From assembly GCA_000091205.1 (NCBI GenBank), contig AP006497.2: DNA of 64,000 nucleotides. One strand, 5' to 3'. The notes below the pieces were generated by a model. It saw nothing but the letters and a program-made list of their open reading frames with translations. It was not told where the DNA came from and ran no database searches. Both the position numbers and the translations under genes were made by a program. The number at the start of each line of letters is the position of its first letter. The stretch's first letter is position 1. Origin of the DNA: Cyanidioschyzon merolae. Its lineage: Eukaryota. Shown here piece after piece: positions 1,500 to 63,985 of this stretch.

Positions 1500-2170
1500 A
1501 GCTTCCTATTCCTCTCTCGGGTGGAAATGCAGTACTGAACTGCTCGATCTGCTCTTACATTTCTTCATTCATTTCGGGCTTGTTTTGGGTGTACTGTCTC
1601 GATTTTCGAAGTACGATACGAGGGACTTGCGAGTTCGTACGTATTTTTAGGATTCTTGGACTTATTTTTGAGTGGCTCACTCGAATCTCTGCTGATGGAG
1701 CTCATTGCGTCTTAGGAATCAAGATGATTCACGTAATCGTAGAGCAAGTGTTCGTAAAATGACCAATGTCATTATCCATTGTATAGGAAGTATCCTCCAT
1801 TCTTCTCGTTTCTTTTGCGCACTGCATCCTCTAATCACACGTTGTATCCAAGTTTTAGACCTTTCTGCTTCGGGCCAACCTGTGGGCTCAACAATTTGCG
1901 CGTCTGGACTGACGACGAATACCACTCGTCGATCTCAAATGGCGGCATGTGTAGAAGCTCGTGCCAAAAGTTCGTTGAGCTTCTCGAGTCAAATATTCGA
2001 TTCCGTTCCAAACACAAATCTACCACGCTCTGTGAACATCGACGAAACTGTTTCGGCGGCAGCATGATACCTCTCGTGCGATATGCTCCAAGACATCCCG
2101 TTTCCTCTGTTCTTTTTCGATGGAAAAAGGTCCTGGAGTCGGACTTGAGGCATGACAACGATCGCTTTCG
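1500..2170 (+). repeat. Dispersed repeat family B, copy 1 (noncoding; contains the conserved ~60-nt core at 1745-1810)
   Basis: By-eye alignment to 14303-14835, 15233-15765 (inverted) and 27390-27860: shared blocks such as cgtaaaa..tgtcattatcca..ata.g...tcctcca, ctaatcacacgttgt/caaatcacgcgttct, ggactcggacttgag.cat..ca..gatcgctt. Boundaries are approximate. Confidence 0.55.
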
Positions 2171-3469
2171 TTGGAGTATGTGTGACCGCTTTGCACGAAC
2201 GCAGCGTCGATGCATCGAGAGTTTTCGATCTTTTCTCCACCGCTCTTTTCGCTTTCGGTTCTTGATTCGCCATGAATCAGCTCGGGTTCCGCCAACATCT
2301 GTCGAATGGTACAGCGTGCGCGTGCGTGTGCACCAAAAAGAGTACTCGCCGAGGATATTGCTCGCAAGAGTCACGCGATCGTAGGGCAGGGCACCGGGAG
2401 CGAAAACGATGGAGACTGCCCAAAGGAGCCTTCCGTAACCGTCAGCGACATGCGCCGGACCCTGAAGCCAGTCTGAACGCGGTGCAGGACGGCCCTCGGG
2501 CGAGCGGATCTGAAGTGCCTACAGAAGCCCTGGTTCACGTTCAAGTGTCACCGCTGCACAGCGCGCACCGAGGCTTTATGCATAGAGTATCAATATGCGA
2601 AACGAGGCGTGGATCGCAACCACCGTCTGAGCATGAAACGCGTCGGTAACAGCCGGAAGCATCGAATCCGAGAGTTTAACACTGCCGTCAACATCGTTTG
2701 ACTGCTGCCAATAGGGCCACAGGGACAAGAGAGACCTCTGTGTTTAGATCTAGAGGTAAGAGCGAGGGCAAGGAAGCAATTGCAGAAAATTCTCGCACTT
2801 TCTTGTATTGATGACATTGGGCAGAGACTCGAACTTTAGAGTGTACGCACGAGTTGGATACGCGGACTCTAGTCTGAAACGGATATATTCAGCGACTCGA
2901 ATGGCCTCTGAGTAAACGGGTCTATTGAAGCGATAGGAAATGGAACACTCCGGAAGGAACGTTACAGGTTCTGGTACTCGTGAAATATAGAAGAATTTGT
3001 GCGGCACACGAGCTCCGTTTCCTGATTAGCACCAAAGCTTCCGCATCCGAAAGCCTTACTGGTTGCTTCGCGATATCCGTCGCCCATGCAGAGATTCTGC
3101 CGCCTTCGGCCTCGTCGCTGGCAAAAAAGGAGCGGCTGTCAGGTCAGGTCCGTGTCATGGCCTCCACACAGAAGCGGAAGCAACCAGACCGCGGAACTGC
3201 TTTCCGTACTCGAGCTGGGCACGAGACGATGACCCCAGCTCTGCGCTTCGTATCCGACTGCAGGCATGCAACGCGTCCAGTCCATTCGTTGTATGCAATC
3301 GTTAGTTGCAGCCTCCTGGAAGCAGCAGATATTGATTCAATTGCGTGATCTGTATGTCCAACGCGAACTAGGCTTTATCAGAGTCGCATTCGCACGCATG
3401 TATCGCTCAGTTCTGCGTACTTCAAATCCAGTACGCAAATATGTGTCCGAAATATGCAGTCTCGCATTT

Positions 3470-12161: not shown

Positions 12162-14282
12162 TCAGTGATTTCGCTCTTGTAGAGCCAACAGCATCCCGTA
12201 ACGGCTGTTCGATTCACGAAGAAGCTCCTCATGTGTGCCGTATTCGACAATCTCGCCATTCTCCATAACCGCAATGCGATCAGCATCTCGAACGCTTGAG
12301 AGACGATGAGCAATAAAAATAGTGGTTCGTGGGTACGCGCTTGATGCGAATAGCTCACGAAGACTCGAAAGAATATGAGTTTCATTTTCGGCATCGAGAG
12401 CGCTGTATGCTTCGTCGAGTATGAGAACACCCGGCTCGCGGTAAAGCGCCCTAGCGATAGCAAGGCGCTGCCGTTGCCCACCCGACAGATTTGAGCCACC
12501 TTCTCCAACCAGCGTTTCGTACCCTGCAGGCAGATCCTTCACAATGAAATCGTGTGCTTTTGCTAATTGGCAACAATATTCAACTTTCATGGGGTCCATT
12601 GGCAAGCCAAACGCAACGTTCTCCGCTACTGAGAAATTCAACATCGGTGCGTCCTGGGGCACCACGCAAACCTGTCGGCGAACATAGTCAAGCGGCATGG
12701 ATCGGATATCGACACCGTCCAGGTACACGAAACCGCGCTGTGGATCACACATGCGGCTCAATACAGCAATCAATGTTGATTTGCCGGCACCGCTTCCGCC
12801 AACGATGGCTACGCGCTCGCCTGGATGAACAGTCATCGTGACGCCACGCAGCACATATTCCGAATCTGGTGCATAGCGGAACCATACGTTCCGTACTTGG
12901 ATTTTTGATGCGGCTGGTTTGGGAATACTGGAGGTCTCTATTTGAGTACGCTTTTTGGGACGCAGGTTGATAACACGAAACACTCGTCTTGCCGACTCCT
13001 CGCCTTCTTTCACACTCCCCAGACCAGAGGCTATCCCTTGCACTGGCTCTATGAGAAATGCCACAGCGGCGATGAAGGAAACGAGCTCTTTCGGCTCGAG
13101 ATAACCCCAACTGATACAAAGTGCGCTTGCATAGAGCATTGTCAGGACTGTTATAGCGTAGCAAACAGATATAGCAGGTACAATCCCGGCTCGAATAAAA
13201 TGCATGCGGTTCTTTGCGAGAAGGAGCTCTTTCGCGAATGCTTCCAGTTTTGACGCAGCAAAATCCTGTGCTAAATACAACTGCAGGAGTTGCCGATTCC
13301 GAAAAGAGTCTGCAGTCGCTGCAGCGTACCGAGCGAACAGCTTCTGCGCCTGTCTTACATACTGGTCCAGTCTTCGTTCAAGAATCGCATAGACGACAGC
13401 CATGAGCGGTGCGGTACATAATATACACAGTGTCAAGGGCAGAGAAACATACAACATATAAGCAAGCATCACGACGAATTGGAGCACGCTGGGCGCAAGC
13501 GAGCGGAGAACGAGAAGCATGGCACTACCTACCCGCTCTATCTCCATGGTGGCTTGCATGGAAGCTTCACCAGAGTCTAGGGCGCCCTCCTCTAGACCGA
13601 AATCAAGGGCGGACGCAACATAACGCGCCCTGAGCGCGTCTTCGACAAAGTTGCATGTTCGGGATAGCCATACATCCTGACCAAACTGAGATGCTACCCG
13701 CAAAAGGAGCGCAACGCTGCAGCCGACCGCTAGTTGGCCCACGTTTGCCAACGAGCCGGCAGCCACGGCCGAGCTTAGACGCCCGAAGAGGCGAATAAGC
13801 CACAAAAGGGACGAACTCGACATAAGGGTGCATAGTCCCGAGAAAACAACCTCCTTTGTGTGTGTCCTGATCAAGCTAGCGAAAACCTGAGCCAATTGCC
13901 ACCGACCAAGGCTTTGAATACCTGCCCCAATAGCCGAGTCGCGGGAGATGCTTTGAAGTTGTGTCACACTGAGCTTTCGCAAGCGCTTTCTAGGAACGGC
14001 TACCACTTTCGGAGCCCTCCGTCCCAGAAAGCAAACGACAGGAGACACCAGATATCGCGACTGCTGACAGAGCTGATCGTTGCCACCATAGAACGCAACA
14101 CTACTCCATAAACTTGGAACGATGAAAGCTAGCGAGCGGCATTCTTGGACAAGGTGCCTTCCCCTTGCCATAGCTTTTGGACTACACCGTTGCTGCTGGC
14201 GTCTTCGACAGGGCGCACTGCGGGGCCACTGACCCGCACGGGCTCGACCGTCGAGATGGACGTGCTGCCGGGGTCGTCCCAA
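12162..14282 (-). CDS. ABC transporter, B-family half-transporter (TMD-NBD; ATM1/ABCB-like); long N-terminal extension, true start may be internal
   Basis: 706-aa ORF with Walker A GGSGAGKST, ABC signature LSGGQRQRLAIARAL, Walker B ILILDEAYSALD, H-loop IAHRL, and an N-terminal six-helix TMD region. Confidence 0.9.
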   Translation of the reverse strand: MGRPRQHVHLDGRARAGQWPRSAPCRRRQQQRCSPKAMARGRHLVQECRSLAFIVPSLWSSVAFYGGNDQLCQQSRYLVSPVVCFLGRRAPKVVAVPRKRLRKLSVTQLQSISRDSAIGAGIQSLGRWQLAQVFASLIRTHTKEVVFSGLCTLMSSSSLLWLIRLFGRLSSAVAAGSLANVGQLAVGCSVALLLRVASQFGQDVWLSRTCNFVEDALRARYVASALDFGLEEGALDSGEASMQATMEIERVGSAMLLVLRSLAPSVLQFVVMLAYMLYVSLPLTLCILCTAPLMAVVYAILERRLDQYVRQAQKLFARYAAATADSFRNRQLLQLYLAQDFAASKLEAFAKELLLAKNRMHFIRAGIVPAISVCYAITVLTMLYASALCISWGYLEPKELVSFIAAVAFLIEPVQGIASGLGSVKEGEESARRVFRVINLRPKKRTQIETSSIPKPAASKIQVRNVWFRYAPDSEYVLRGVTMTVHPGERVAIVGGSGAGKSTLIAVLSRMCDPQRGFVYLDGVDIRSMPLDYVRRQVCVVPQDAPMLNFSVAENVAFGLPMDPMKVEYCCQLAKAHDFIVKDLPAGYETLVGEGGSNLSGGQRQRLAIARALYREPGVLILDEAYSALDAENETHILSSLRELFASSAYPRTTIFIAHRLSSVRDADRIAVMENGEIVEYGTHEELLRESNSRYGMLLALQERNH

Positions 14283-14302
14283 CCTGCGCTAAACGCTCAC
14301 TC

Positions 14303-14835
14303 GTGTCATATTAACATGGAATACCGGACTGGTAGCTCCGTGCCTGCCTTTCTGTCTCTTTCCGGACCTTTTTTGGATGTACATCCTAGACATTCAAGGT
14401 GCAGCGACGGGGGATTACGGATTCATGCACAGTATCAGAGTTCGTGGTCGTCGTTTCAGAGCGGCTTTTTCGAGCTTTTGCCGCTGGAATCCGTTCCGCT
14501 ACGGGGTAGAAGATGACCCGCTGCGCCCTTGAGTAACGGTTCGTAAAACAAGCCGTGTCATTATCCACTGCATACGTAGAATCCTCCACTGTTCTCATTT
14601 CCGTACCTGCAGCATGCTAAAATCATACATGCTTAAAGTATTCGATCCGTTCGATTCATGGTGGTCCATGGGCGCAGCAATTCGCGCCTTTAGATAAACA
14701 ATGAAAAATGCGACTTCATTGCCGGACGACTTGTTAACAAGCCCATGCCAGAAGCTCATTGAAAATATCAAATGAAATAATTGATTCATTTGAAAATATA
14801 GATCGTTGTCTCTTTGTCATCATCGACGAAACGCA
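14303..14835 (+). repeat. Repeat family B, left arm of an inverted pair (mate at 15233-15765; symmetry centre ~15034; spacer ~400 bp)
   Basis: Identical ORF pairs in inverted orientation in the ORF track (14386..14598- = 15470..15682+; 14595..14789- = 15279..15473+; tail of 14145..14516+ = 15552..15851-), all obeying x <-> 30068-x. Reverse complements at the arm ends match by eye. Confidence 0.8.
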
Positions 14836-15232
14836 ATTCGACACTAGCATAACGTTTGTTACGGGTTTTTCTTCCAGGATATCTCGCTCAACTGTTTGCG
14901 CGGAAAAGATTCTTGGACTTTGGGCATCGGAGCAATGGCTTCTAACTGAGCATGCGTTATCAACTTGCATAAAGGGAGCGAAGACGGATCGAATTTTTTC
15001 GACGTGATCATCATCCTGAATACTCCTTCTGGAACATGTTTCATCATAAACAATACAGTATGACGCAAATTCTCTACTTAATGGCGATACTTGCGCTCGC
15101 GCCCGCGAGGGATGGATTACTCGCCTTGGATTTCTCTTAGAACTAGCCCATGATCGTAGGATTCGGCTACGAGCACGGAAACGGCGGAGGACATGAAGCG
15201 AAGCCTTCTGGACCCGTCAGGAGCATCTACCA

Positions 15233-15765
15233 AGCCTTTCGTCGATAATTACAAAGAGACAACGATCTATATTTTCAAATGAATCAATTATTTCATTTGA
15301 TATTTTCAATGAGCTTCTGGCATGGGCTTGTTAACAAGTCGTCCGGCAATGAAGTCGCATTTTTCATTGTTTATCTAAAGGCGCGAATTGCTGCGCCCAT
15401 GGACCACCATGAATCGAACGGATCGAATACTTTAAGCATGTATGATTTTAGCATGCTGCAGGTACGGAAATGAGAACAGTGGAGGATTCTACGTATGCAG
15501 TGGATAATGACACGGCTTGTTTTACGAACCGTTACTCAAGGGCGCAGCGGGTCATCTTCTACCCCGTAGCGGAACGGATTCCAGCGGCAAAAGCTCGAAA
15601 AAGCCGCTCTGAAACGACGACCACGAACTCTGATACTGTGCATGAATCCGTAATCCCCCGTCGCTGCACCTTGAATGTCTAGGATGTACATCCAAAAAAG
15701 GTCCGGAAAGAGACAGAAAGGCAGGCACGGAGCTACCAGTCCGGTATTCCATGTTAATATGACAC
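15233..15765 (-). repeat. Repeat family B, right arm of the inverted pair
   Basis: See left arm; reverse-complement identity to 14303-14835. Confidence 0.8.
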
Positions 15766-16453
15766 GGGAGTACCAGCAGGCTATGGAAAGAACAAAGCGG
15801 CCCTAGTGCTTGGGCCCAGCATAGTCTGCCTTCGCGACAACAGCAAACCATCTCGCACGAACACGTATCGAGCCGTCACCTTCATGCTTAGCGCACTGAG
15901 TGATTTCCAGGCAATCTACTGACAGAATCGATGCAAGTCGGCTAGAACGGCGAATGGGTGAAATTACCATCAATGGATGCGCGTGACGCATGCCACTTAT
16001 CCAACAGGTATCTTTTTGAAACTTCCATAATCTATAGCAGACTTGCACCAGCGCAGGGAACGACGAAGGCTCTCCGACGGCTTTCGAGGTGCTGTTGCCT
16101 GGACGCGGTAGGTGCATGCCGGTTCGCATCCTGCTAACCAAACTTCCGGATCAGAAGCGATCCAGCATTAGAGACACGACACAGCTCCGAACACATCTGT
16201 GATGCATCACAGCGTCTGCACCTGTTCACAGCCCATGATCAGCTTCCGCTGAGAGACTCACCACTCGGTGACAGGTAGCTAATGCATTCGTCCGATGCAT
16301 CTTGCGATCACGTGTACGACGCGGTTTTGGAATCTCTCTAGAGGTCCGCAGCACTGCAAAACACGCTCCGTGCAGGTTCAACACGGCACTGCTGACCATT
16401 TTTCTTGTGGAATTTCGTGAACGCAAGCTTGTAGGCGCAGCCCGGCCGCTCTA

Positions 16454-17119
16454 TCATTCCCTCAGCATCTCAACCGTGAAGCATACTGCAGCTGAGACGG
16501 TGCCCACAACAGCACTTGCTGCGAGAAAATAGCCAGCACTCCCGGGGCGCAGTTGAGCTCCATTCGAAGACGAGTGCAGCGCAAGCCGATTCCTCAAAGC
16601 GATGAATAGCCACTTCATCCAGAGCGTCGAGATCCCGCTGGCTGTTCCAGCTGCGGCTGCTATCAGGCGCGGATTCCGTAGCTGTTCAACCGTAGAGAGT
16701 TTCTCTAAAACATGCCCAGAGGAGTGATCGAGGATCTTATCCGTCCAGATCGCGCTCTGGCGGTCCAGGAAACAGTATATTCCATAATACTGGGCAGTGA
16801 AGACGCCAAATTCCGCTGCACGTCCGATCGCACTGACAAAAATCATACTCATATACAAGTGTGACGGGTACGCAAAAGGTCTCGGTACTCGAAACTGCCA
16901 TAGGTGTCTCCAGTCGAGAGCCTTTCCCCACGCCGTGTTCGTGCAGTCCCGCACGCTGTTGTCCACGTGGGCAGTATCAGAGCGGTGGGAGCCCCAGACT
17001 CGGTGTACCCCAACAATGGCGCCCCAAGCGAGGCCCAGAGGAACGCCTTTCAGCGCTCCGTCGAGTACCTGAGAGGTACAAGACCAGTCTGGTTTGCGAG
17101 TCCTTACTGGCTCCGCCAT
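16454..17119 (-). CDS. Hypothetical four-helix membrane protein (Tim17/Tim22/PXMP4-like size and topology, family not confirmed)
   Basis: 221-aa ORF with four hydrophobic segments (GLAWGAIVGV..., MSMIFVSAIGRAAEFGVF..., LIAAAAGTASGISTLWMKWLFIAL, YFLAASAVVGTVSAAVCF). No motif match I can assert. The region is GC-rich with overlapping ORFs on both strands. Confidence 0.35.
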   Translation of the reverse strand: MAEPVRTRKPDWSCTSQVLDGALKGVPLGLAWGAIVGVHRVWGSHRSDTAHVDNSVRDCTNTAWGKALDWRHLWQFRVPRPFAYPSHLYMSMIFVSAIGRAAEFGVFTAQYYGIYCFLDRQSAIWTDKILDHSSGHVLEKLSTVEQLRNPRLIAAAAGTASGISTLWMKWLFIALRNRLALHSSSNGAQLRPGSAGYFLAASAVVGTVSAAVCFTVEMLRE

Positions 17120-17435
17120 GGGACCCGATCAGAGACCAACACCCGCAGCAAAACTGCCATTGCAGTCTCGGCCTGTGAGCCACAAAAAGCAAACGGTGCT
17201 GAGCGTTTCGCTGCCCTTATGCAACAGAGACGTCACCGCTACCCCTTTAGCCTCGCAGGTTGCTCTCTGGTAGATACCCACTCAAACGTACTAGGCCGCA
17301 GCTTGCTCACGAAACCAGTGAAGCGTCCTGCATCGCGCAGGTACCTGCTTCTGACAAGCGCTCGACGCGAAAAATTTTCATGCGTTGCTTGATGGACGAG
17401 GACGTTGCTGAGACAGTCTCTGCCAGTGGAGCCGG

Positions 17436-25689: not shown

Positions 25690-27090
25690 GAAAATGGGGC
25701 GTCCCGTTTCAGACTTTCAATTCAATTCTATTCCACCTTTGCTGCGATTTATTGGAGGAGGTCAAAATCGCTTTGCAATGTATATATCCTAGACGAATTG
25801 CTTGCAGGACGCATTCATTACTGTGCAGTGCAAGGAGGACAGCTTCCTTCTTCAGGCCAGTCATAACACAGCACTCAGATGCTTGCGGAACATTGAAAGA
25901 AACAAGTATATGCGCTGCGCATCAAAAACCGGTATTCTCAAAGAGTGCTTGCGATCGATTGTAGAAAACGGCCTGTTTATCACCTTACGGGAAGCAAAAG
26001 CAACGATAGCAGCCATCATGAGCGCCTCTCTTTCTCAACAGCTTGTTCATGTGGTCCTAAAAACATTCGGATACAGTCGAAGAAAACGAGACTTAGTTCA
26101 CGCACGAGAGTCTTCTACCGAAATCGCAACGACTGTGTTCCTGGAACCTCGAGGTCGATGTGAAGCACCAGGACGTTGGTTTGTTTTTCTGACAGTCGAA
26201 GAGACTTGCGTCGGAGGAAAAGGTCGGAGCGTGTGCGGGTTTTTGCGGTTCAGGGAGCTCGTTATCTGCACGATGGAACTCGAAGAGATCGAGGATATCA
26301 TCATAGGCTCTTACTGCAGTAGATTCATTCTGCGGCATAAGTTTCGCTGGTACAGAAGGCTCACATAATAGCAACAACCATCTCATCGAATCATTGAAGA
26401 TTTTTCCCTGACGCTTGGCGGCTTCTGTCCATTGGACAACATGCATTTCATCAAGTCATTTGCGTTCGAGCTTTTCCGATTTCATCGACATAGAGATGCT
26501 TTCCATACCCCCGTACGCTCCTTGGTTGAAACCAATCCAAGGAGCGTTTTCTGTTGTAAAAAGTAATGATAGCTCCGCTGGGCGGATCGTTGATGCCTTC
26601 AGCTCACAGTAACACACCGGGGCACATATCGTCTTTCTTCCGCAAGTGCTCCTTCCTCCGGGAAGGTCATCATCTGAGGCTATTCAGAATTGCGTTCATT
26701 TTAAAAAAAATAAATGGATGAGCCTGTGTGTACGTTTCAGAGGTTCAATATGGAATGAAGGCGGCGAAGCGTATCCTCGACAGAAAAGCAGAGAGAGCTG
26801 ACAGAGCAGCAAATGGCACAGAGGGCACGGGTCCGTGATCTCCTTTCATTGATGAGTTTATGCAGCGGCAAGAAACGCGTCGAGATCGTGAACGCAGACT
26901 TTGACTCTGCTATCAACATCAGAAGATGTGCATTGATGAAAACGAGACCCGCAGAGCTGACGCGATCCAACGATGTAGGGGAGCTTCTAAAAGCCGAAGT
27001 GTACAAGCAGAAACTGAAGCCGATACCAGGGGCCAGTCAAAAAACGCTGGGAGGCGCTTTGAGTGGATACTAATTTACCCTCAGTGGTCG
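25690..27090 (+). mobile_element. Repeat/transposon family A, copy L1 (non-autonomous; relics of DDE transposase C-terminus at ~26415-26612 and TnpB/Fanzor-like RuvC-III tail at ~26813-27073)
   Basis: Three collinear blocks are shared with copies at 39133-40423(-), 43664-44953(+) and 52880-53408(+, partial). Module A: FSTACSCGPKNIRIQS...FYRNRNDCVPGTSRS versus FSTACSCSPHNTRIQS...FHRNRNDSVHGTPRS. DDE-like tail: MLSIPPYAPWLKPIQGAFSVVK (compare Tc1/mariner L-PPYSPDLNPIE-W). TnpB-like tail: LCSGKKRVEIVNADFDSAINIRRCAL (compare RuvC-III D-x-NAA-x-NI). The 3' terminus ...ccctcagtggtcg is homologous to ...ctccatggt[tc]g in the other copies. Confidence 0.7.
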
Positions 27091-27389
27091 CGAAACTTTT
27101 TTTCTTGTACTGACATGTCGTCTATTAACGAAGTTTTCCGTAAAGCACGGATGGATACCGATTTCGCAGGGCTCTATCTTTTGCATGCGAGTCTGATCTC
27201 CTCTGCTTCATACGTGTCAGCGTCAAAATAGAACACTGAACAGCTCGCTCTTATCTCGCTTCTCGAATTTTTCCCGAACTTTGCTATGTGCACAGCATCG
27301 AAAGTCGAAGCACATCAAGAAATACTTTCAGTCTCTCACGTAGGTTTAGAATGCTCTATTGTCATTTCAGAGTGGTTCCTGCCAAACCT

Positions 27390-27860
27390 AGGTACTGGAA
27401 CACGTTATGCCATCCTCATTGATATGGGCAGTGGCGCACTTGAACAAGCGCCCGTAAAATAACCTATGTCATTATCCAGTTCATACGTTCAAGCTTCCTC
27501 TCTTCTCCTTCCCCAGCTTTATGATGCTCAAATCACGCGTTCTCCACGTTTTCATTCTTTTTGTTTGAATGCAACTCATAGATGCTGCTAGATGCGCCCT
27601 CTATTGAGGACGAGAAGAACCCGACGCTTTCCCTTGACGGCTTGTTCGCAAGCTCATTCTCATAGATCATGGAACTTGTTATTCCAAATAATCGATTTCA
27701 TGTAGAAGACAAATCCTCTTTTCTTTGTGACCGTCGATGCGGGAGCATTCGTCATCAGAGTGATTTCTCTCTCTGGATACTCTCCATGGTTCCCATCTCT
27801 TCTGTTTGCATGTAGATGCTTCTTGGACTCGGACTTGAGTCATCGCAGTGATCGCTTCCA
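27390..27860 (+). repeat. Repeat family B copy (contains conserved ~60-nt core at 27455-27515), immediately downstream of family A copy L1
   Basis: Alignment by eye to 1500-2170 and the 14303/15765 inverted pair (cccgtaaaataacctatgtcattatccagttcatacg...; caaatcacgcgttctcc; ggactcggacttgagtcatcgcagtgatcgcttcc). Confidence 0.55.
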
Positions 27861-29200
27861 GTAGAAATTGAGTCATCACTATACAGGAAAGGGACTTAAA
27901 CGGATCAAAATCTCTCTACTTGTTCTCCAGAGTGGAGCCCCCGTTACTTTGCTCGCCATGGACAACGTCACGGTCCACACAGACTGTATCGAACGAAGCA
28001 GCATGCGCCCGCGCATGCGACGGGTAAAGTGCTCGCCTTTGAGATCCCGAAGAACAAGCCCGTGATCGTGGGAGACTCCACCGGCCATGCTAGCCAAAGA
28101 GCGCATCGAGGGAAGCCTTCTTCAGCAGTCAAGCGCGTACGCCGAGCGATGAAGCAAACTTTTTCGTGCCGCAGGGCGGCCTTCGGAGCTGGAATTGTGG
28201 CAGACATACATGAACATCCGACCCCGACCATGTTTCACCGCTTCGAAGGGCGCGCCGACGCAGTTCACAAAGAAGCAGAAAATTGGCAAGCGAAGCGCAA
28301 ATCGCTGCCACAGGCCGCGGGCACATATCATCGACAACGGTCGGGAGCTGCTGAATCTGGACTTGAACGTCGCAATCAGCATCCTTTGGCTGGTCAAAAC
28401 GGAGCTGGAAGGACACAGGAGACAGATGTATAGAAAGCCGGAGTAAAGATAGAGGAAAAGGAAGCAGTCGCGGTGTGAGCTCTGCAAGCTGCTCTTGACG
28501 ACAGTGGGAAGAGATCTGAACTTTATCTTGTACTTACGAGTCAAGTCAGTTGTCAACTTCCGTATTATTTTGATGTTGGTGTAGCGGAATAACGAGGGTA
28601 CTCGATCCTGAGCGTTTCCGCCTCGCAACGGTTCAAATGTGGTTCCAACACGGCTCTCAGAAAAGAGGGCGTCTCCAACGAAACCGAGGACGCAAGGAAA
28701 TTCCGGATTTTTCTCCATACCGCAAAGGCATTCGAGCGTGCATCGGGCATGCATCCTCACTGTAATGTGATGCGCCTACGTTCTTTGATCGGGGGCTCCT
28801 GCAGGCCTCCGGAGCACTAGCTGCACTCGAACCAGAACTGCTATTTCCATGGTCCAAAAATTTCCAGTTTCCTCTACGAGCCCCATATATACGTATTCCG
28901 AGATCGTTTACGATGTACGCACAGCGCGGACCTCATCGCTGTATACAGAGGAGGCGCTGCGACCATACGTCCCGCACCGTAACCCCAAATCAAGCATCCA
29001 GCCGGAAACGCCGCCTTGAAAGCCAGCCCGGGGAAGAAAGATCTATCAGATCCCGCCTCGCGCACGTTGATCGCATCCGAAGCCACCTACAGGACGCTTC
29101 CGTTGACAACACATCGGCGTGCATAGTCCTTGTACAGCTTATTCTGTAAATGTCCAGTATTTTCACGTCATCGGCTTGATTGCGAGTCTATGTTCTGAGG

Positions 29201-30284: not shown

Positions 30285-32769
30285 GTCTGCTGTTGTTGCC
30301 GCTTCTGGCTAATTTGCGGTTCGTAAGCCGTCTTTAAGCGACTTAATCCGATACAGGACGGTCCAGTTGGCAAATCATGGTCAACAGAGCTTTTCGAAAG
30401 AATTGGTAAAGTTTTGCGTGGGCATCTCTGATTTTTCGCCAAGCGAAACACGTACAGCGAGCAAATACCGATCGTCGAACGGAGTATATTTGACCTTTAG
30501 ACTTCATCTGGGAACGCACAAGAGCTGGACGCTTTTGCGGGTGTTTGATGGAGGCGCTGTTTTGCAAGCCGCGGAGAGTTATGCTCTTGTGGTTACCGAG
30601 TCATTTTCCTCTTCGGGCCGTAAAGTCAATTTGCGGACAAGAATGGGAACGCACTCCCTTAATACATCGAAGAACTTTTGCACTTTCTGCAGGTATGCAT
30701 CTAGAGCTTTGGAGAGACCTTTGTTGGGGCTTCGGGCGTTTGGTGGATCGGTCGTGGCACGTATATTTTGCTTTTATCTTTTTTGGAACACCGAACGCTG
30801 TCCAACCTTTGGAACGAACTGCTTTTACAGCACGATATGTTTCGTTCGTATTGAAATTGCATATCTCCAAGGAAGCATAGCCCCATCTATTGTTGGACTA
30901 AAAATGCACAGAAATATTGCTCAAATTTTGTTGCGTAGAATAAGAGAATCTGATGGGATGCATCCGGGATCGCCACGGCTGCCGTTTATAGACTCTCGAG
31001 ACAAAAATCAAGCCCATGGTTTCTGGGGAAAAAGCCAGCATTTTAGCGAAAATTCCTCGCAAGACGAGAACCGAAAAATCTCTGCAGGATACGCACCTCC
31101 TGAGTGTGCTAGGCATCTGCTCAATAAAGCTCTTGGACAAATCCTATCCTGGATGCGCACCTGAGAGCTCTTTGCAGCGAATTCAGGAGATCAAACAAGC
31201 AATTCACTAATTCTGGAATTTTTGCACCATACCAAGTCTCGATGTGTCGCAGGAGTGCAAACGCTTGGACAACATCAGAGTAAACTCGGATGTCCTATTC
31301 TACATAGTTTTGCATACCCGAAACATTGATCATCCATGCTGCCAATCGTTGGATGATGCCAGCGATCAACGAACTCTGACGTACAACGCGTGCGCGCAAC
31401 ACGCGAAGGGCGTTTGTCGGCCGATACGAACGTTTCCGAAATGGCAAAATTTAGGTGGCACCTCGGGCAATCTGAATAAATATGCACGAGACTTGTCGCC
31501 TTTTGCTTTTAGAAGGCTGCGCTGACGGCCTCTACTGGTGCCACGTGACTTGCAGTGCAATGCCGGGCACCAAAGCGAAAATATGCATTCCAGTGTTCGC
31601 TGGAGCATACGGAAGTGAAATTTGCAGATTTGAGCGAGCGTTTCCTTGAGACCTGCACGAACTCTGCAAATTTGACGCAGGCAACTTGAAGAATGGATAC
31701 AGCGCGGCCTACCGCGATATCTCTTTGCAACCATAATAGGATAAAAAGGAAAGAGTCTACTTGCGTAACTCACACAGGTGTTCTAAAGACTGTGTCTCTT
31801 CACATTGCCATCAACATTAGCGGGTTTTGGCTTTTTCTTTGACTGTGTCCCTAATTTCTCCCCTCTTTCCGGTATTGAATTCGCCGGATGCTCATTGGCC
31901 ACCAGCCCTTTTGTCAGAAGTCGAAGGACGCAAATGACAGAGTTCATGTCCCGATCTCGCTGCTCCCTGCTGTTTTTGACGACTTTCCTGCACAGACGCA
32001 AGTTGCAATCTACTTATCGCTTGCCATTTTCATCATCTTCTTCCACCAGCTCTGCATGTCAGTCGCAGCGGCGACACTCGACTGTAGTCAGGTGTTCATG
32101 CCTTTCCACCCAACCACATCCTTCGAGTGCCAACTTGTAGCGCGTGAACATTTGTTTCATCGCATGGTACATGCCCTTTTCAGTTAAAGAGGGCTCGCCC
32201 CGGTGCATTCCTCTGTTTCCGCGCCCGGTGACATTCCCCTACGAATGCTGACTTCCTGTAGGCAATCTCCACGAAGAGGACACTGTCAGCTGCAAGCGCA
32301 GGTGCACACTGTCCTACTCTATAAAGGATTTGTGGGATGCGATACTTTCTGTGATGAAACAAGCACCGAAAGTACAACCCAAGCTGCAAAATTTTTGATT
32401 CATCTGTGCTCCCTCCGTGCGAAGCTGTGATGCACTCACTGCAAGAGGGATTAGCTGCGATGAATGAGTTCCGAGTACAAGACCATTTTCAGGCAACTTG
32501 AAGAGACGGGCACCTGCTGGAGCTTGTCACGTGTGAGGCGTCATGCTGGCCCCGAATGCCGTTTCGTCGATAGCCACAAAGAAATGAGATTTTTTTCTTT
32601 CGGGCGTAATCGATTTTTTGACCTGGCAAGCTCAGGGAACTTTCGGCATGATTTTGTAGACAATTCATCAAGGGACGACGTCGAGTATTTTTCCTCCTCA
32701 AGCGTTCAGCACGATCAGCTCCACCCACAATAACCCTAGAAACAGAAAGATCCAAAACCTGAAGAAGGC

Positions 32770-33080
32770 GTGATTTGAGCATATTATACGCACGGCACCG
32801 GGCTGAATGGAGGCATGCATACATGAACGTTAAAATGACTTTGGTTACTTTTCGAAAGCTTTCTTGAGTGCGTCGCGTATCAGCCTCATCCCGGTAACGT
32901 AACAGATATCTGCGCCAACAAGTCGAAGAAGCCACTCTGAAAACGCGGTCCAGATCCCTAAAAGTTCATCAGAATTCGTAATCCCTTATTGCTACAATGC
33001 GCATATCGAGTCTGTGCATGTAAGAAAAATTTGGAGAAATCGAAAAGCCGAGACACAGCGAGCAGTTCAGTGTTCAGTTT
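32770..33080 (-). repeat. Repeat family C, copy 1 (homolog of 56050-56370; carries a start-less remnant of the conserved small ORF)
   Basis: Alignment by eye: gtgatttgagca...gctttcttgagtgcgtcgcgtatcagcc versus catgatttgagca...gcttgtttgacagcgtcgagaatcagct, and gaaaagccgagacacagcgagcagttca versus gaaagacaagagaagaccgagcagttca. Minus-strand translation: ...ELLGIWTAFSEWLLRLVGADICYVTGMRLIRDALKKAFEK*. Confidence 0.5.
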
Positions 33081-33612
33081 TAATCTTACACGGGTATGGT
33101 GAGATTTTTTCTCGCTGCCCGACGAGTATTCATGAATCTCCTCATCTGTTGCGCGAAGCAGTGAACTGGAAGTTACACGGACTACGGGATAGAGCAAAAT
33201 CCTTTCTGTAGCTCAACAAAACAACAACGTAGCTCCGAAACCCCAGAGTTCTTCACAGATATTTTCATCTCAGACCTAAGCCTGCGCTATGTACTGAAGG
33301 CATGTACCCGGAAACAGCGCTGCCAGCGAAGTCTAGTGTCTCAAGTTGCACCGTCGCTCGCGTCGACTTTTCCAGTCAAGAACGGGCAACAGCTGTCTAG
33401 GAGGCGCGCAACGTATGCATTTTCTGGGTTCGCACACCGGAGACAGTGCCTACTCGGCTTCAAGACGCGAACTGATCGTTGAATGCTCGTTTCTACCCAG
33501 TACTATTCACTATCTATCTCTCTTAACTTGACCGGTGCCACAAAAAGTGCGAGGACACTCTCTGTGCAGCTTACAGTTACGCCAGACACTGCTCCGCGTT
33601 CCAAAAAAGCTG

Positions 33613-33700
33613 TGGTGCTGCGCGGGCTCGAACCGCGGACCTTCGTGTGGCAGCTATCTGCTTATCAGCACGATGCGATAACCATCTTCGCCACAGCACC
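33613..33700 (-). tRNA. tRNA gene with a ~14-nt intron in the anticodon loop; predicted anticodon GAU (Ile) if loop is C-U-GAU-A-A; followed by oligo-T Pol III terminator
   Basis: Reverse complement reads GGTGCTG-TG-GCGA-AGATGGTTA-TCGC-A-TCGTG-[CTGATAAGCAGATAGCTGCCA]-CACGA-AGGTC-CGCGG-TTCGAGC-CCGCG-CAGCACC-A then CAGCTTTTTT. It has a 7-bp acceptor stem, a 4-bp D stem, a 5-bp anticodon stem enclosing 21 nt (7-nt loop plus 14-nt intron), a T-arm with TTCGAGC loop and a discriminator A. Anticodon assignment is tentative. Confidence 0.6.
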
Positions 33701-38711: not shown

Positions 38712-39132
38712 CAGAGCTGCCCTGACACGAAAACACTACTGCGAGCGGAACGCTCGGAAAGCTCTTTGTGGACGCCCTCCAGAGTAGACACTCAAAAATA
38801 CGTCCAAGTCACAACCACGACGTCGTACGGACTAGACAAAAGAGGGCTCAAATGAAAATAAACATGCAGCCACTACAGTTTCTAAAGCTTTTCAACGACC
38901 AGACGAAATACACTGCGCTCTTATCTGTGCGAGGCGACTGGATGGTCGCTGTACACAGACAGTGCTCTCACAGAATTTTTTGACACCAATTTGTCGGAGG
39001 ATTAGTTGAATCAGCAGAGCCTTTCGCAGCGATGGAGACACCCTGATGACATCTAAGCAACTCTGGTGTGCGGGTATTGTAGTCAAGTCGAGTGTAGCTT
39101 CCATTTATACTCAGTAAAATAAAAACATTCTA

Positions 39133-41691: not shown

Positions 41692-42395
41692 AATGGACAC
41701 GGTATAGAAAAATCAAACCGGTTTTGAAAATTGCGATCCGGTGCGCCGCTCGAATTATTCATCGACATTCGATTTTATGCTCAGTCGGAGTGCCGTTTTA
41801 CTCCTGTATTCTCTAAAACCTTGGTACGCTCGCTACGGGAAGTCTTTAATGCGTTTCTGGCGTGCAAGTCTTATTTCCTGGGGAGTAATTCCATTCCGAC
41901 ATCACTTAGACACACGCCTATTTTGCATCTTCGGATCACTCAAGACATCCACACGGGTCTCGTCCGTTCGCTACGGTGGCCTGCTCCGGTCTTCTTTTAC
42001 TGGAATAGGGCTGTTTTCCTCCATTAAAAATACTTTCCGCATGGATCCTCTGAGATATATATTCAAGGCTTTAAAACCCCACTTGGTAGTTGACAGGTTC
42101 AGTTTATGATACTCTCACTAGCGAGATTTCACACTCGGAAGCTGTTTCCTTCAAAGAGAACACTGGCTGCACCTTACGAGAGTGGGGCTTAGTCGCGCAA
42201 CAGCACTATGATTTGAAGCTCACCAACGTAGGGAAAGGCTGTAGCGCGCACTGTCAGCGCGACATAATTCCAAAACCTTACTCTTTTCGAACGCTTTGCT
42301 GGTTCCGAAAATATGAATTGCCCCATTCGAGTACGATCCCAACAACTGCTTTTGCACTTCAAAATACCTGAAGACGCAACTGCGCCGCATCCATT

Positions 42396-49640: not shown

Positions 49641-49646
49641 CGCAGT

Positions 49647-49685
<39 letters not shown>

Positions 49686-53408: not shown

Positions 53409-56049
53409 GTGGATTATTGCGCGTGAGGCAGCGCGATATTTCTTCCACCTCGTTGATTGGGCGCTTCTCCCAGCGCGCATACATTCACACCGACGCATTC
53501 GATCACGCACCATTCTCTTCCTCGCCACCCTTCGTTCCCGGTACAATACTTTTCACAAAACGTGTAGATTATTACGAAATTCATTGCGGCACTTTGCACT
53601 GTCGCGGGCATATCGTACAGGACTTTCTGCTGAGTGCGATAACGCCTCCAAGGCTTCTAAGACATCATTGCGTTTGGCCTGCACGTTTCTGGATTATTCG
53701 CCCAGTCATTACTCTCTGCTGAGATAAAGATGAGACGTATGTTAGTAGGTCTTACAGCTGTTGGTTGAAGTCCGATGGTTCACCAACGATTCCTCCAGTG
53801 CGTCGTCGTTTACCACAGGCAGGCGGACTCCTCCTCGAGCCTCAACGAAGCGCTGGTGTATGGAGTCTCTTTCCCTGGCTTCAGGCCGACGCACTGTGCA
53901 TAGCGGAGAAGATTCACGAGGACATGCTTCTGCATTGCTTGATGTTCCACCGTGTCTTACCTCATCTGAGCAGAGGAGCGTTTGGGCTCTCAGTGGGCCG
54001 TGTACCGTGCAAGACGCCCGCGTTTGATGATTTTGGATGCAGCTACGTCATTGGTCTCGAAGGAGGACGCTACGTCTTGTCGTGATGGTGCGAATTCTTT
54101 GTTCCTTCTTTATTTCTTTCCCATACGCATCTATCTTTGCTTTCATTGACTTGTCGCTCCTCCTCCCGTTTTTGCGTTCCTTCGAAGCTTCGGGCCAAGA
54201 GCGCACAATTTCTTCCATGCACTCCAGGCAGTCGATAAGCTCCTCTTCTGCTTTGATGCTCTTCGTGTTGTGCATCAGAAGCATCTACGCCGCCTGTACG
54301 GAGGCGCCCCACTCAATCAAATTGGAAAAAAGCCTCATATCGAGGTGCTGGTAGGAGCGACTTAAAGATTCGATTGGAAAAGTAGAAAATTTCTTCCCTT
54401 CAGGGACACGGTACAGCACCCCAAATGCAGAAGCATCATCCCTTTCTTTTGCTGGTTACTCACAGGCGACAGCTGAATCATTTCTTTGGCGTATTCGTCT
54501 CGGAAAAGCATTCGACGGAGGTTTACAATGCTCCCTCTCTTTCCAGTCGATGGGCTTCGACGAAACGCCGATAACGAAGAGCTCCTTCATGTCGCCCGGA
54601 CTTGAGACCGACTCGTGGTTTTTTCGTTTCAACATCAACGAATACATCACCCGAGGGTGGAAGTGAACGCTGACGTGTTTCAGGCTCGCCGTGCATACTT
54701 TTCGTCCCAAGTGCCTCTTTGTTTTTCTGGAACGCTTTGAGTCTCGCAACGAGTGAAATCCTCGGCATCCGCAAATTTGTTCAGCTGAAAGACCGAAGAG
54801 CGTTCGGCGTCGATGAAAGCTCAGAGCGAGAGAGGAGTACTCGGCATGTACTCTGGAAGAGTGAGGGCATAGAAGGCGGTCGGTGTCAATAGTCTCTCAA
54901 AGAAATTCATCACTTTCACAAGGTCCTTGAAGTGAGGAATGTCCGCAGTCTTGTGCGAAAGGCAAGCATGTTGCTGGAGCTTGCTGAAAGAAATGCATAT
55001 TTACATGCGCAGGATGTGTGCTCCGGCAAGAGCAAGCACGCTCAGATGAATCCCTTTATGAGTGTAGCGTCGCAAAGTAGCGACACGCAAAGCTCCTCGT
55101 TCGCGTAGCTGCCCGAGCGTTGAGGTTCGTACAGCAAGGCGATCCGTCGAAAGGTGGCGACGTTCTCTGGGACGGGTATGCACCTCTGTTCGAAATGCTC
55201 TAGGATTTCTTTTTAGTCCTTAAACAGCTGTTTCCCTCTCTCACATGGTGTGGTTGGGCTGTGTGCCTCTGTTGACGAACCAGCAATTTATTGTCATTCT
55301 CAATTCATCTTTCAACTTTTTCCCTCACGTCTCTTCAGAAATCCGCCAACCTAAAACTTGGAAACCTTGTGCGAAACAAACCCTGGCAGGCCGGGCGGTT
55401 TCAATTGCGGCCTCTAAAGCGACGAGCACCAGTTCGTATTGAGGACAATCCAAGGTATTGACATGTGCATCCGCTTCCCCAGGTCAGTGCCTCGCGGAAC
55501 CGGAAGACGTTCTTCATTTGGCGAAACTATGGAAAATAAGTTCGAATGCATAAAATGATCCATCCTCTGGTCTCTACTCATTACCAACGGAAAAGTATTT
55601 GTGGAACGCGATTTTTCCACGAAGAAGAATATACTGGGGCGAAAATCCGGGTTTGAGGACGAGTTGAGAAATTTCGATATTTGCAAGCTCCCTTCTTGTG
55701 AAGATCTGATGCGCTCTTCGTGGAAAGCGATCGCTGGGATGACTGACGTCCGAGTCTTAGATACTTTTCTCTCCAAACAGAGGAGGTCGGAGCCTCTGAG
55801 AGCTTCTCTCGATTTTGGTACTATGCTGCTATCGAATGCCGTTTCATCGATGGCAGGACGGAGTAGGGGACCCTCCTTTTGAACAGAATCTATTGTATTA
55901 CCCTAGATGGTCAGTTACGTTCTAGAGTGATCTTGTCAACGAGTCTCCAACGAGCAGCCTCGAGTAATTTTTGTCGTCAACCCAGCAGTAAGCGAGACCT
56001 GCTGCGCCCACGACTTGTCTTGAAACATAAAGATAGAAAACTTGAAACA

Positions 56050-56370
56050 TGCATGATTTGAGCACCCAACTCGTAAGGAAGGAGGAAGAAAGGAGGCTTA
56101 TAAATACAAAATCGATCATGATACCGGGTATTTTACAATTGCTTGTTTGACAGCGTCGAGAATCAGCTTGATTTCAGTGACGCATGGAACTCCAGCGGCA
56201 GACTGTCGAAAGAGCCGCTCAGAAATGCCAACCGAGTGTTCTAAAATTAAGTATGAAACCATATGCCCTTATGGCTGATAGTCGAACGTTGACGCTGTAC
56301 ATCTAGAAAGAGTGCATAAAAACGAAAGACAAGAGAAGACCGAGCAGTTCATTATTCCATTGTGTTCGGC
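56050..56370 (-). repeat. Repeat family C, copy 2; contains an intact 48-aa small ORF (56116..56262, minus)
   Basis: See the 32770-33080 entry for the alignment. Minus-strand ORF: MVSYLILEHSVGISERLFRQSAAGVPCVTEIKLILDAVKQAIVKYPVS*. Confidence 0.5.
56116..56262 (-). CDS. Conserved small ORF (48 aa) within repeat family C; function unknown, could equally be a terminal exon or a pseudo-ORF
   Basis: Peptide aligns without gaps to the copy-1 remnant with mostly conservative replacements (GVPCVTEIKLILDAVKQAI versus ADICYVTGMRLIRDALKKAF), although nucleotide identity is only ~60-65%. Confidence 0.3.
   Translation of the reverse strand: MVSYLILEHSVGISERLFRQSAAGVPCVTEIKLILDAVKQAIVKYPVS

Positions 56371-63952: not shown

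Positions 63953-63985
<33 letters not shown>

What the first reader, a model, noticed from the sequence alone, without database searches (positions are those of the whole stretch)
14303..15765. Second palindromic structure: two inverted copies of repeat family B (~530-bp arms, ~400-bp spacer) in a gene-free gap
The arms are exact reverse complements by eye and belong to a family with further copies at ~1500-2170 and ~27390-27860. An inverted pair with a short spacer can form a long hairpin. That is a candidate fold-back (MITE-like) element or hairpin-RNA source, and a potential fragile or recombinogenic site. It lies between the ABC transporter and the DDX54-like gene, with the possible Tim17-like gene at 16454-17119 nearby.
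Basis: seen in the sequence. Interest (0 to 1): 0.55.

Follow-up and report, generated by a model that had tools for sequence, protein, structure and literature searches.

The report
Inverted partial repeat dimer, arms homogenised
A real 1.5-kb palindrome upstream of an ABC-transporter gene in the red alga Cyanidioschyzon merolae is built from one old, non-coding dispersed repeat plus an inverted copy of its first 533 bases. The two arms seem to be kept identical by gene conversion, and it is not a mobile fold-back element or a likely hairpin-RNA gene.

Summary
Arms 14302-14834 and 15234-15766 are 530/533 complementary, with a 399-nt spacer. The outer 516 nt are perfect, and all 3 mismatches lie in the innermost 17 nt.

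The window is chromosome 15 of C. merolae 10D. "Family B" is a ~1.33-kb non-coding dispersed repeat with five loci in the window, about 58% identical to each other in a star-like pattern. The palindrome is unit positions 1-934 (left arm plus the whole spacer) followed by an inverted copy of positions 1-533. Both outer ends fall on the family's sharp terminus.

Nine metagenome contigs from five or more samples show both flank-arm junctions, so it is not an assembly artefact. Wild strains differ from 10D at 6-7 arm sites. They carry the same variants on left-flank and right-flank arms, and one site is seen on both arms of a single contig. That indicates concerted evolution by arm-to-arm gene conversion.

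Syntenic loci in Cyanidiococcus and another cyanidiophyte lack family B, and their intergenic region is about 1.4 kb shorter.

No target-site duplication and no second palindromic copy were found. The arm 25-mer occurs only at this locus, and published work reports that the host lacks RNAi. MITE and hairpin-RNA readings are therefore unsupported.

The origin is inferred, not shown: fold-back copying, or two insertions. Interest is modest.

The parts
14302..14834 (+). Left arm. It corresponds to family-B unit positions 1-533. Its outer end is the family's sharp terminus, 131 bp upstream of the ABC-transporter ATG.
14835..15233 (+). Spacer. It is not a separate sequence but the continuation of the left B copy (unit positions ~534-934). 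It aligns to the other B copies at about 59%.
15234..15766 (-). Right arm. It is an inverted copy of unit positions 1-533, and its outer end (15766) is again the family terminus.
14302..14817 (.). Perfect core of the left arm, 516 nt, 100% complementary to 15251-15766.
15251..15766 (.). Perfect core of the right arm, 516 nt.
14818..14834 (.). Imperfect inner edge of the left arm (CATCATCGACGAAACGC). It matches the reverse complement of 15234-15250 at 14 of 17 positions, with a 10-nt perfect core ATCGACGAAA. This is either a candidate fold-back priming microhomology or an unconverted edge.
15234..15250 (.). Imperfect inner edge of the right arm (GCCTTTCGTCGATAATT).
1525..2854 (+). Full-length family-B unit (~1.33 kb). 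Its position-1 end lies 498 bp upstream of the DnaJ gene ATG (~1027, minus strand).
27213..28541 (+). Full-length family-B unit. Its position-1 end abuts repeat family A (25750-27114), which lies upstream of an aminotransferase gene.
31782..33092 (-). Full-length family-B unit. Its position-1 end (33092) lies 830 bp upstream of the TauE-family gene ATG (33922).
55582..56361 (-). Truncated family-B unit (positions 1 to ~780). Its position-1 end lies 533 bp upstream of the ThiD ATG (56894).
12162..14171 (-). ABC transporter gene (669 aa), the neighbour on the left.
16454..17119 (-). Its 3' end faces the right arm, 687 bp away.

Best explanation
The structure is an inverted partial dimer of a lineage-specific, non-coding dispersed repeat (family B; unit ~1.33 kb). 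One B copy truncated at unit position ~934 (14302-15235) is joined to an inverted copy of its own first 533 nt (15766-15234).

Shown: the element is old. It is as diverged from the other B copies (~58%) as they are from each other. It is absent from the syntenic locus of sister lineages and present in all sampled C. merolae-like wild strains. Its arms are kept identical within a genome while diverging between strains, which means arm-to-arm gene conversion, as in sex-chromosome palindromes but in miniature.

Inferred: the inverted arm arose by fold-back (snap-back) copying. A 3' end at about unit position 950 annealed to the 10-17-nt inverted microhomology at unit 517-533 and was extended back to the element's terminus. 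This most simply happened during or soon after the insertion that brought B here, which would explain why copying stopped exactly at the element end.

The palindrome is not itself mobile. It probably has no RNA-silencing role. Its main consequence is structural: a recombinogenic inverted repeat that forms most of the upstream region of the ABC-transporter gene.
For: Structure: searches give the arms, the 516-nt perfect core and the 3 mismatches confined to the inner 17 nt. Searches show that left arm plus spacer equals unit 1-934, that the right arm equals unit 1-533 inverted, and that both outer ends sit within ~3 bp of where family homology begins.

Family B is non-coding and decaying neutrally. 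There is no 3-periodicity. tblastx shows no frame preference. Stop codons are depleted in all six frames, so the long ORFs carry no coding signal; I attribute this to TpA depletion, which was not measured. Protein-level similarity between copies is nil. Conservation is uniform along the unit. Pairwise identities are star-like at 57-60%, with a transition fraction of ~0.49.

Lineage-specific insertion: nhmmer finds no B in the syntenic Cyanidiococcus locus (L010) or the second cyanidiophyte locus (L011). The gap from the 221-aa gene stop to the ABC ATG is 918 bp in L010 versus 2282 bp here, and the difference is close to the 1465-bp structure.

Not an artefact: the left flank-arm junction is seen in L001-L004, L006, L008, L009, L012 and L013, and the right flank-arm junction in L005 and L007. 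L001 runs from the left flank through arm and spacer into 157 nt of the right arm.

Concerted evolution: the 10D arms are 516/516 identical. Wild strains differ from 10D at unit positions 206, 225, 232, 287, 288, (354) and 398. Those variants are found on left-flank arms (L001, L002) and on a right-flank arm (L005). L001 carries 14699 C>T and its mirror 15369 G>A in one contig.

Context: the other palindrome in the window has ~70%-identical outer arms and 100%-identical inner arms, which points to homogenisation of old inverted duplicates in this genome.

Fold-back origin: there is a 10-nt perfect core within a 14/17 inverted match exactly at the inner junction, followed by a perfect arm. The right arm is the only B end not co-oriented with a downstream gene, so it looks like a by-product rather than a normal insertion.
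Against: The origin step is not demonstrated. Gene conversion erases age information, so a fold-back event cannot be separated from two independent insertions that were later homogenised.

The inner 17-nt segment is also compatible with an unconverted edge of a second B copy: it matches the family consensus at 13 of 17 positions (my reading).

A post-insertion fold-back would not be expected to stop exactly at the element terminus.

The transposition mechanism of B is unknown. No poly(A), no reverse-transcriptase ORF, no terminal inverted repeats and no detectable target-site duplication were found.

Evidence for concerted evolution rests on short-read metagenome contigs, in which identical arms are collapsed. 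Only one variant site (unit 398) is physically seen on both arms of a single contig.

A genome-wide census of family B could not be done.
Confidence: 0.55

Rival explanations
1. Two independent family-B insertions landed head-to-head in the same intergenic region during the family's burst. One was truncated at unit ~934 and the other at ~533. Gene conversion has since homogenised the whole stretch of shared homology.
For: Both outer arm ends coincide with the family terminus. The inner 17 nt is homologous but diverged (14/17), as expected at the edge of a conversion tract. Palindrome 1 shows that an old inverted duplicate can be partly homogenised, with 70% outer and 100% inner identity. Concerted evolution is demonstrated.
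Against: Two truncated copies would have to abut exactly, with no intervening sequence. The right arm is the only B end that is not upstream of, and co-oriented with, a gene. Two copies would have had to insert within 1.5 kb of each other and start converting before they diverged.
Confidence: 0.25
2. A later replication- or repair-based inverted duplication (fold-back after a double-strand break, or template switching) acted on a resident single B copy and was unrelated to transposition. The outer boundary coincides with the B terminus by chance.
For: There is a microhomology patch at the inner junction followed by a perfect arm. The arm sequence is unique to this locus. The rest of unit 935-1330 is missing, as expected if a break occurred there.
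Against: The coincidence of the duplication end with the family terminus to within ~3 bp is roughly a 1% event. The model also needs a second, precise rejoining to the right flank.
Confidence: 0.12
3. It is a mobile fold-back or MITE-like transposon with 533-nt terminal inverted repeats.
For: Long terminal inverted repeats are present, and the arm ends are sharp.
Against: No target-site duplication. The four other family members have no inverted arm. The arm 25-mer is found only at this locus among metagenome contigs. The spacer is ordinary B sequence. At 1465 bp the structure is large for a MITE. One published survey found no MITEs in C. merolae (PMC3964958, abstract).
Confidence: 0.03
4. It is a functional hairpin-RNA or regulatory locus. 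Transcription through the palindrome gives a long double-stranded RNA, or the invertible spacer acts as a switch for the adjacent ABC-transporter promoter.
For: The predicted hairpin is very stable. The left arm ends 131 bp from the ABC ATG. Assemblies disagree about spacer orientation.
Against: C. merolae is reported to lack RNAi machinery (PMC11376382). There is no Rfam match. Family B shows uniform neutral-like decay with no conserved core. The orientation disagreement can be explained by assembler ambiguity, because the arms are longer than typical short reads.
Confidence: 0.04
5. It is an assembly artefact of the reference genome, with only one arm really present.
For: None found. Palindromes are a known source of misassembly in general.
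Against: Independent metagenome assemblies from several samples contain the left flank-arm junction and the right flank-arm junction. One contig spans arm, spacer and the start of the second arm. The reference was finished to completion (PMC1955436).
Confidence: 0.01

Closest known systems
Sex-chromosome-type palindromes with arm-to-arm gene conversion (for example the human Y palindromes P1-P8; from my own knowledge)
   Same: Inverted arms are essentially identical within a genome. There is a non-duplicated spacer. Arms diverge between lineages but not within a genome. Spacer inversion by recombination between arms is expected.
   Different: About 1,000-fold smaller (0.5-kb arms). The arms are a decayed non-coding repeat and carry no genes. 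The structure sits in a compact unicellular algal genome. Evidence for conversion comes from only a few sites.
Fold-back (snap-back) inverted duplications primed at short inverted microhomology (for example Tetrahymena rDNA palindrome formation and fold-back inversions after double-strand breaks; from my own knowledge)
   Same: A short imperfect inverted repeat (10-nt perfect core, 14/17 overall) lies exactly at the inner junction and is followed by a perfect arm. The loop equals the sequence between the two microhomologies.
   Different: Copying stopped precisely at the repeat-element terminus instead of running on. The product is a small interstitial palindrome, not a chromosome-scale inversion-duplication.
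Fold-back transposons and MITEs
   Same: Long terminal inverted repeats flank a short middle segment.
   Different: No target-site duplication, a single locus, relatives that are not palindromic, and arms that are not made of subrepeats.
5'-inverted or rearranged non-LTR retrotransposon insertions (twin priming in L1; from my own knowledge)
   Same: All six B ends keep the same terminus, while three of the six are truncated at the other end. This resembles the 5' truncation seen in retroposons. Non-LTR retrotransposons are reported in C. merolae (PMC1955436).
   Different: Twin priming inverts a different part of the element rather than duplicating the same part. B has no poly(A), no reverse-transcriptase ORF and no visible target-site duplication.
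The 253-copy 'novel interspersed repetitive element' of C. merolae (Nozaki et al. 2007, PMC1955436)
   Same: It is a dispersed, lineage-specific repeat found in intergenic regions of the same genome.
   Different: That element averages 3.2 kb and carries a truncated ORF weakly similar to WSSV WSV486. Family B is 1.33 kb and shows no coding signal. Identity between the two could not be tested.

Membership tests
MITE / fold-back transposon | Terminal inverted repeats | tested here: met
   533-nt arms, with a 516-nt perfect core
MITE / fold-back transposon | Target-site duplication flanking the element | tested here: not met
   The flanks are ...CGCTCACT | arms | GGAGTACC..., with no direct repeat. 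The terminal CG belongs to the family consensus CGTGTCA.
MITE / fold-back transposon | Multiple dispersed copies with the same inverted-repeat architecture | tested here: not met
   The other four B loci have no inverted arm. The arm 25-mer hits only this locus among metagenome contigs. The full 10D genome was not searchable.
MITE / fold-back transposon | Small size (usually under 800 bp) | tested here: not met
   The structure is 1465 bp.
Hairpin-RNA (endo-siRNA) locus | Long inverted repeat able to form double-stranded RNA | tested here: met
   The predicted hairpin has MFE -759.7 kcal/mol with DNA parameters.
Hairpin-RNA (endo-siRNA) locus | Host has Dicer/Argonaute machinery | tested here: not met
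   From the literature only: C. merolae 'lacks RNA interference machinery' (PMC11376382, abstract).
Hairpin-RNA (endo-siRNA) locus | Transcription and small RNAs from the arms | not testable with these tools
   No expression data were available.
Palindrome evolving by arm-to-arm gene conversion | Arm-to-arm identity far above that of other family members and above between-strain identity | tested here: met
   516/516 identical within 10D, against 6-7 differences between 10D and wild strains and ~58% identity to other B copies.
Palindrome evolving by arm-to-arm gene conversion | The same lineage-specific substitutions on both arms | tested here: met
   The unit-398 variant is on both arms of contig L001. 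The variants at 206, 225, 232, 287, 288 and 398 occur on left-flank arms (L001, L002) and on a right-flank arm (L005). Caveat: these are short-read assemblies from different samples.
Palindrome evolving by arm-to-arm gene conversion | Spacer inversion polymorphism caused by crossover between arms | tested here: inconclusive
   L005 and L008 join the flanks to a flipped middle segment, while L001 and 10D are unflipped. The arms (516 nt) are probably longer than the sequencing reads (read lengths were not checked), so assembler ambiguity cannot be excluded.
Fold-back inverted duplication primed at microhomology | Short inverted microhomology at the inner junction, followed by perfect arms | tested here: met
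   A 14/17 match with a 10-nt perfect core at 14818-14834 / 15234-15250, then 516 perfect nt.
Fold-back inverted duplication primed at microhomology | Outer end of the duplication at an arbitrary position | tested here: not met
   The outer end coincides with the family-B terminus to within ~3 bp. This fits only if copying ran to the physical end of an inserting element.
Non-LTR retroposon (non-autonomous), as the class of family B | Constant 3' terminus with variable 5' truncation | tested here: inconclusive
   All six B ends keep unit position 1. Three are full length and three are truncated (934, ~780, 533). The sample is too small to be significant.
Non-LTR retroposon (non-autonomous), as the class of family B | Poly(A) or simple-repeat tail, and target-site duplications | tested here: not met
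   There is no A-rich or simple-repeat tail at either terminus. TRF reported no tandem array across the palindromic copy and its flanks (13500-17500); the other B termini were not scanned. Target-site duplications would no longer be detectable at this level of divergence.
Non-LTR retroposon (non-autonomous), as the class of family B | 3' end shared with an autonomous LINE of the host | not testable with these tools
C. merolae 'WSV486-like' interspersed repetitive element (Nozaki 2007) | Size of ~3.2 kb with a truncated ORF similar to WSSV WSV486 | tested here: inconclusive
   The B unit is 1.33 kb and shows no coding signal.

The most novel reading that the evidence does not exclude
C. merolae's 'simple' nuclear genome may contain a class of small palindromes built from decayed dispersed repeats. 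These would be actively homogenised by gene conversion, and their middle segment would flip between two orientations in natural populations. At this locus the invertible segment lies directly upstream of an ABC-transporter gene, so it could act as a eukaryotic DNA-inversion switch. Alternatively, the structure could record a retroposon family that creates snap-back palindromes at insertion.
Probability: 0.08. Interest if true: 0.6.

Novelty: new member of a known kind. Interest (0 to 1): 0.3.

Why it matters
The result shows that even the very repeat-poor, 'simplest' nuclear genome of a free-living eukaryote carries old, unclassified dispersed repeats. It also shows small palindromes whose arms evolve in concert. 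That is a compact, genetically tractable setting (C. merolae has efficient homologous recombination; from my own knowledge) for studying arm-to-arm gene conversion and inverted-repeat stability. Practically, it warns that short-read assemblies of cyanidiophyte genomes break at this locus, that the long ORFs in such repeats are spurious, and that the ABC-transporter upstream region consists largely of repeat sequence.

Tried and rejected
Coding potential of family B was tested five ways: tblastx between copies, 3-periodicity of conservation, ORFs in a five-copy consensus, stop-codon counts against shuffles and tblastn with the 172-aa called ORF. There is no coding signal. The long ORFs reflect depletion of stop codons in all frames.

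Scans for known features found nothing inside the structure: Pfam on B ORFs, Rfam on 13.5-17.5 kb at E<=1 and tandem repeats. The tRNA scan of the whole window found no tRNA in or near it; its single, dubious call lies at 33612-33700.

I tested whether the 364-aa ORF of the other palindrome was the high-copy repeat ORF that could give a genome-wide sample. It is a conserved low-copy gene (PF27674, 5 hits), so that route to a census failed.

Exact-protein look-ups for the 221-aa gene, the DDX54-like gene and the 10D ABC protein found nothing. The 10D chromosome itself could not be fetched.

The intergenic region does not align between C. merolae and Cyanidiococcus, so an exact empty site could not be defined.

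A GC-biased gene-conversion signature in the arms was weak or absent: arm GC is 0.46 versus 0.44-0.45 in the other copies.

Target-site duplications were looked for by eye at both outer ends and not found.

The Ns in contig L008 at the variable arm sites turned out to mark sample polymorphism across the whole contig, not differences between arms. The odd tail of L008 looks like a contig-end chimera.

Literature searches found no description of nuclear palindromes in C. merolae.

Full report
**Observation.** The repeat finder on 13000-17500 returns a single inverted pair: arms 14302-14834 and 15234-15766, 533 nt, 99% complementary, 399 nt apart. A base-by-base comparison finds only three mismatches (14818, 14821, 14832), all within the innermost 17 nt. 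So 14302-14817 and 15251-15766 form a perfect 516-nt inverted repeat. Outside the arms complementarity drops at once to chance level (10 of 29 positions). As single-stranded DNA the region folds into one hairpin with MFE -759.7 kcal/mol.

**Source of the window.** Exact matches of three encoded proteins identify the sequence as Cyanidioschyzon merolae 10D, on a 902,900-bp record. That length is chromosome 15 (PMC1955436, Table 1). The neighbours are an ABC transporter (12162-14171, minus strand), a 221-aa gene of unknown family (16454-17119, minus strand) and a DEAD-box helicase (from 17490, plus strand).

**What family B is.**
- Sensitive blastn and a profile search show that the unit is about 1.33 kb, not about 0.5 kb.
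- Full copies lie at 1525-2854 (+), 27213-28541 (+) and 33092-31782 (-).
- Truncated copies lie at 14302-15235 (+; unit 1-934) and 56361-55582 (-; unit 1 to ~780).
- The right arm is a sixth, inverted fragment (unit 1-533).
- The palindrome's 'spacer' is therefore just the continuation of the left copy.
- Homology among copies begins sharply within ~3 bp of 14302 (consensus ...CGTGTCA...), so both outer arm ends sit on the family terminus.

**Family B is non-coding.**
- Conservation shows no 3-periodicity.
- tblastx hits occur in all frames with similar scores.
- Stop codons are depleted in all six frames relative to shuffles, which explains the long spurious ORFs. I attribute this to TpA depletion, which was not measured.
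- Protein-level similarity between copies is negligible.
- Pairwise identities are all 57-60% (JC distance ~0.6), in a star-like pattern. There are only ~12 indel events per 1.35 kb, the transition fraction is ~0.49, and conservation is uniform along the unit.
- This is the pattern expected from one transposition burst followed by neutral decay.
- No Rfam match or tandem array lies in or around the structure. The tRNA scan of the whole window gave one dubious call, at 33612-33700, outside any B copy.

**Lineage specificity.** Syntenic loci were fetched through ABC-transporter orthologues. These are Cyanidiococcus yangmingshanensis (L010) and another cyanidiophyte metagenome contig (L011). Both keep the gene order helicase / 221-aa gene / ABC / amine oxidase / H+-PPase. 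Neither has a family-B hit. The gap between the 221-aa gene stop and the ABC ATG is 918 bp in L010, against 2282 bp in the window. The excess is close to the 1465-bp structure. The intergenic DNA itself cannot be aligned between species.

**Not an artefact.**
- Metagenome contigs about 99.3-99.7% identical to the window end in or cross the arms.
- The left flank-arm junction appears in L001-L004, L006, L008, L009, L012 and L013.
- The right flank-arm junction appears in L005 and L007.
- L001 runs from the left flank through the arm and spacer into 157 nt of the right arm, in the window's orientation.
- The arm 25-mer occurs only in contigs from this locus. No other young copy is visible in those genomes.

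**Concerted evolution.**
- Relative to 10D, wild strains differ in the arm at unit positions 206, 225, 232, 287, 288 and 398 (plus 354 in some). That is about 1.2%, similar to the spacer at 4/399.
- These variants occur on arms attached to the left flank (L001, L002) and on an arm attached to the right flank (L005).
- In the single contig L001, the change 14699 C>T is mirrored by 15369 G>A on the other arm.
- 10D carries the alternative bases on both arms, which are 516/516 identical.
- Arms that differ between strains yet are identical within a genome imply arm-to-arm gene conversion.
- Caveat: short-read assemblers collapse identical arms, and only one site is seen on both arms of one contig.
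- The Ns in L008 at these sites mark strain mixture across the whole contig, not differences between arms.
- Homogenisation of duplicates seems general in this window. The larger palindrome at 39111-44977 has ~70%-identical outer arms and 100%-identical inner arms. A 14.3-kb-spaced direct duplication is a mosaic of 92% and 99.9% identity.

**Spacer orientation.** L005 and L008 join the flanks to the middle segment in the flipped orientation, and the three inner-edge marker bases are swapped accordingly. L001 and the 10D reference are unflipped. This could be real flip-flop inversion by crossover between the arms. It could equally be arbitrary path choice by assemblers, if the 516-nt perfect arms exceed read length (read lengths were not checked). 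I leave this open.

**Origin (inferred).** Three facts constrain it.
- Both outer ends are the element's terminus.
- The inner junction is a 17-nt imperfect inverted match (14/17, with a 10-nt perfect core ATCGACGAAA), followed by a perfect arm.
- The right arm is the only B end that is not upstream of, and co-oriented with, a gene. The other five are, if unit position 1 is read as the 3' end: DnaJ at 498 bp, ABC at 131 bp, the aminotransferase via family A, TauE at 830 bp and ThiD at 533 bp.

My preferred reading is fold-back copying. A 3' end near unit 950 annealed to the microhomology at unit 517-533 and was extended back to the end of the element. This is most easily explained if it happened while the element was being inserted, which accounts for the stop at the terminus. 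The main rival is two head-to-head insertions that were later homogenised. It explains the outer ends equally well, and it reads the 17-nt edge as unconverted B sequence. A later break-induced fold-back is possible, but it needs a ~1% coincidence at the outer boundary. Gene conversion has erased the information needed to date the event. It predates the ~1% divergence among sampled strains and postdates the B insertion.

A mobile fold-back or MITE element is not supported: there is no target-site duplication, no other palindromic copy, and only a single locus. A hairpin-RNA source is unlikely to function, because C. merolae is reported to lack RNAi machinery (PMC11376382). 'Recombinogenic site' is supported in the form of gene conversion. 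With a ~400-nt spacer, hairpin or cruciform extrusion should be much less frequent than for a true palindrome (from my own knowledge), so marked fragility is not expected.

**Comparison and novelty.** The closest analogues are palindromes that evolve by arm-to-arm conversion, and fold-back inverted duplications. This case is a very small, non-genic example built from a decayed repeat. Published descriptions of C. merolae repeats mention 26 non-LTR elements, 8 class II elements and a 253-copy 3.2-kb element with a WSV486-like ORF (PMC1955436). Ensembl masks 28% of the genome, mostly as unclassified repeats (PMC11050394). I found no description of family B or of nuclear palindromes in this alga. 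Whether B is part of the published 253-copy element could not be tested. I rate this a new member of a known kind, of modest interest.

Noticed in passing
window 39111-44977: A larger palindrome. The outer arms (39111-40424 / 43663-44977) are about 70% identical. The inner arms (about 40425-41702 / 42385-43662) are 100% identical, around a 682-nt spacer. Each inner arm carries an intact 364-aa gene (40590-41684 +, 42403-43497 -) of Pfam family PF27674, with orthologues in Cyanidiococcus. The sharp step from 70% to 100% suggests an old inverted duplication that has been partly homogenised.
   Followed up: partly
window 45899-49700 and 60199-64000 (runs off the window end): A direct duplication spaced 14.3 kb apart, carrying a transketolase gene and a 400-aa ORF. 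Identity is mosaic: 92% over 45899-46701 and 99.9% over 46943-49700.
   Followed up: partly
window 25750-27114; 39111-40560; 43527-44978; 52910-53411: A second non-coding dispersed family ('A', ~1.4 kb, ~64-72% identical between copies). One copy abuts family B at 27114/27213. The others form the outer arms of the larger palindrome.
   Followed up: partly
window 1525, 14302, 27213, 33092, 56361 (unit position-1 ends of family B): Every primary B copy lies upstream of the next gene, with the same end facing that gene's 5' end: DnaJ 498 bp, ABC 131 bp, the aminotransferase via family A, TauE 830 bp, ThiD 533 bp. This could reflect insertion preference, selection on orientation, or promoter co-option. 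Five loci are too few for a firm statistic.
   Followed up: partly
L005 (Ga0080006) and L008 (JGI24721J44947) versus L001 and window 14818-15250: Metagenome assemblies disagree on the orientation of the 433-nt middle segment of the palindrome. The cause is either real flip-flop isomers or assembler ambiguity.
   Followed up: partly
window 16454-17119 (minus strand): The 'Tim17-like' ORF is a real gene: a syntenic gene of the same 221-aa length is called in Cyanidiococcus and in a second cyanidiophyte, and its coding end aligns to both loci at 66-69% DNA identity. It has no significant Pfam match (best is Romo1 at E=0.5). Exactly this protein sequence is not on record in the gene-position index.
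   Followed up: partly
family-B copies, all six frames: Stop codons are about half as frequent as in mononucleotide shuffles in every frame, probably through TpA depletion (not measured). This produces 150-290-codon open frames in non-coding repeat DNA, and metagenome gene callers annotate them as genes (for example a 172-aa call at 2036-2554).
   Followed up: yes
window 49961-50116: Two tandem copies of a 78-nt unit, 78% identical.
   Followed up: no
window 33612-33700 (minus strand): ARAGORN reports a dubious tRNA-like structure with an undetermined anticodon, between a B copy and the TauE-family gene.
   Followed up: no
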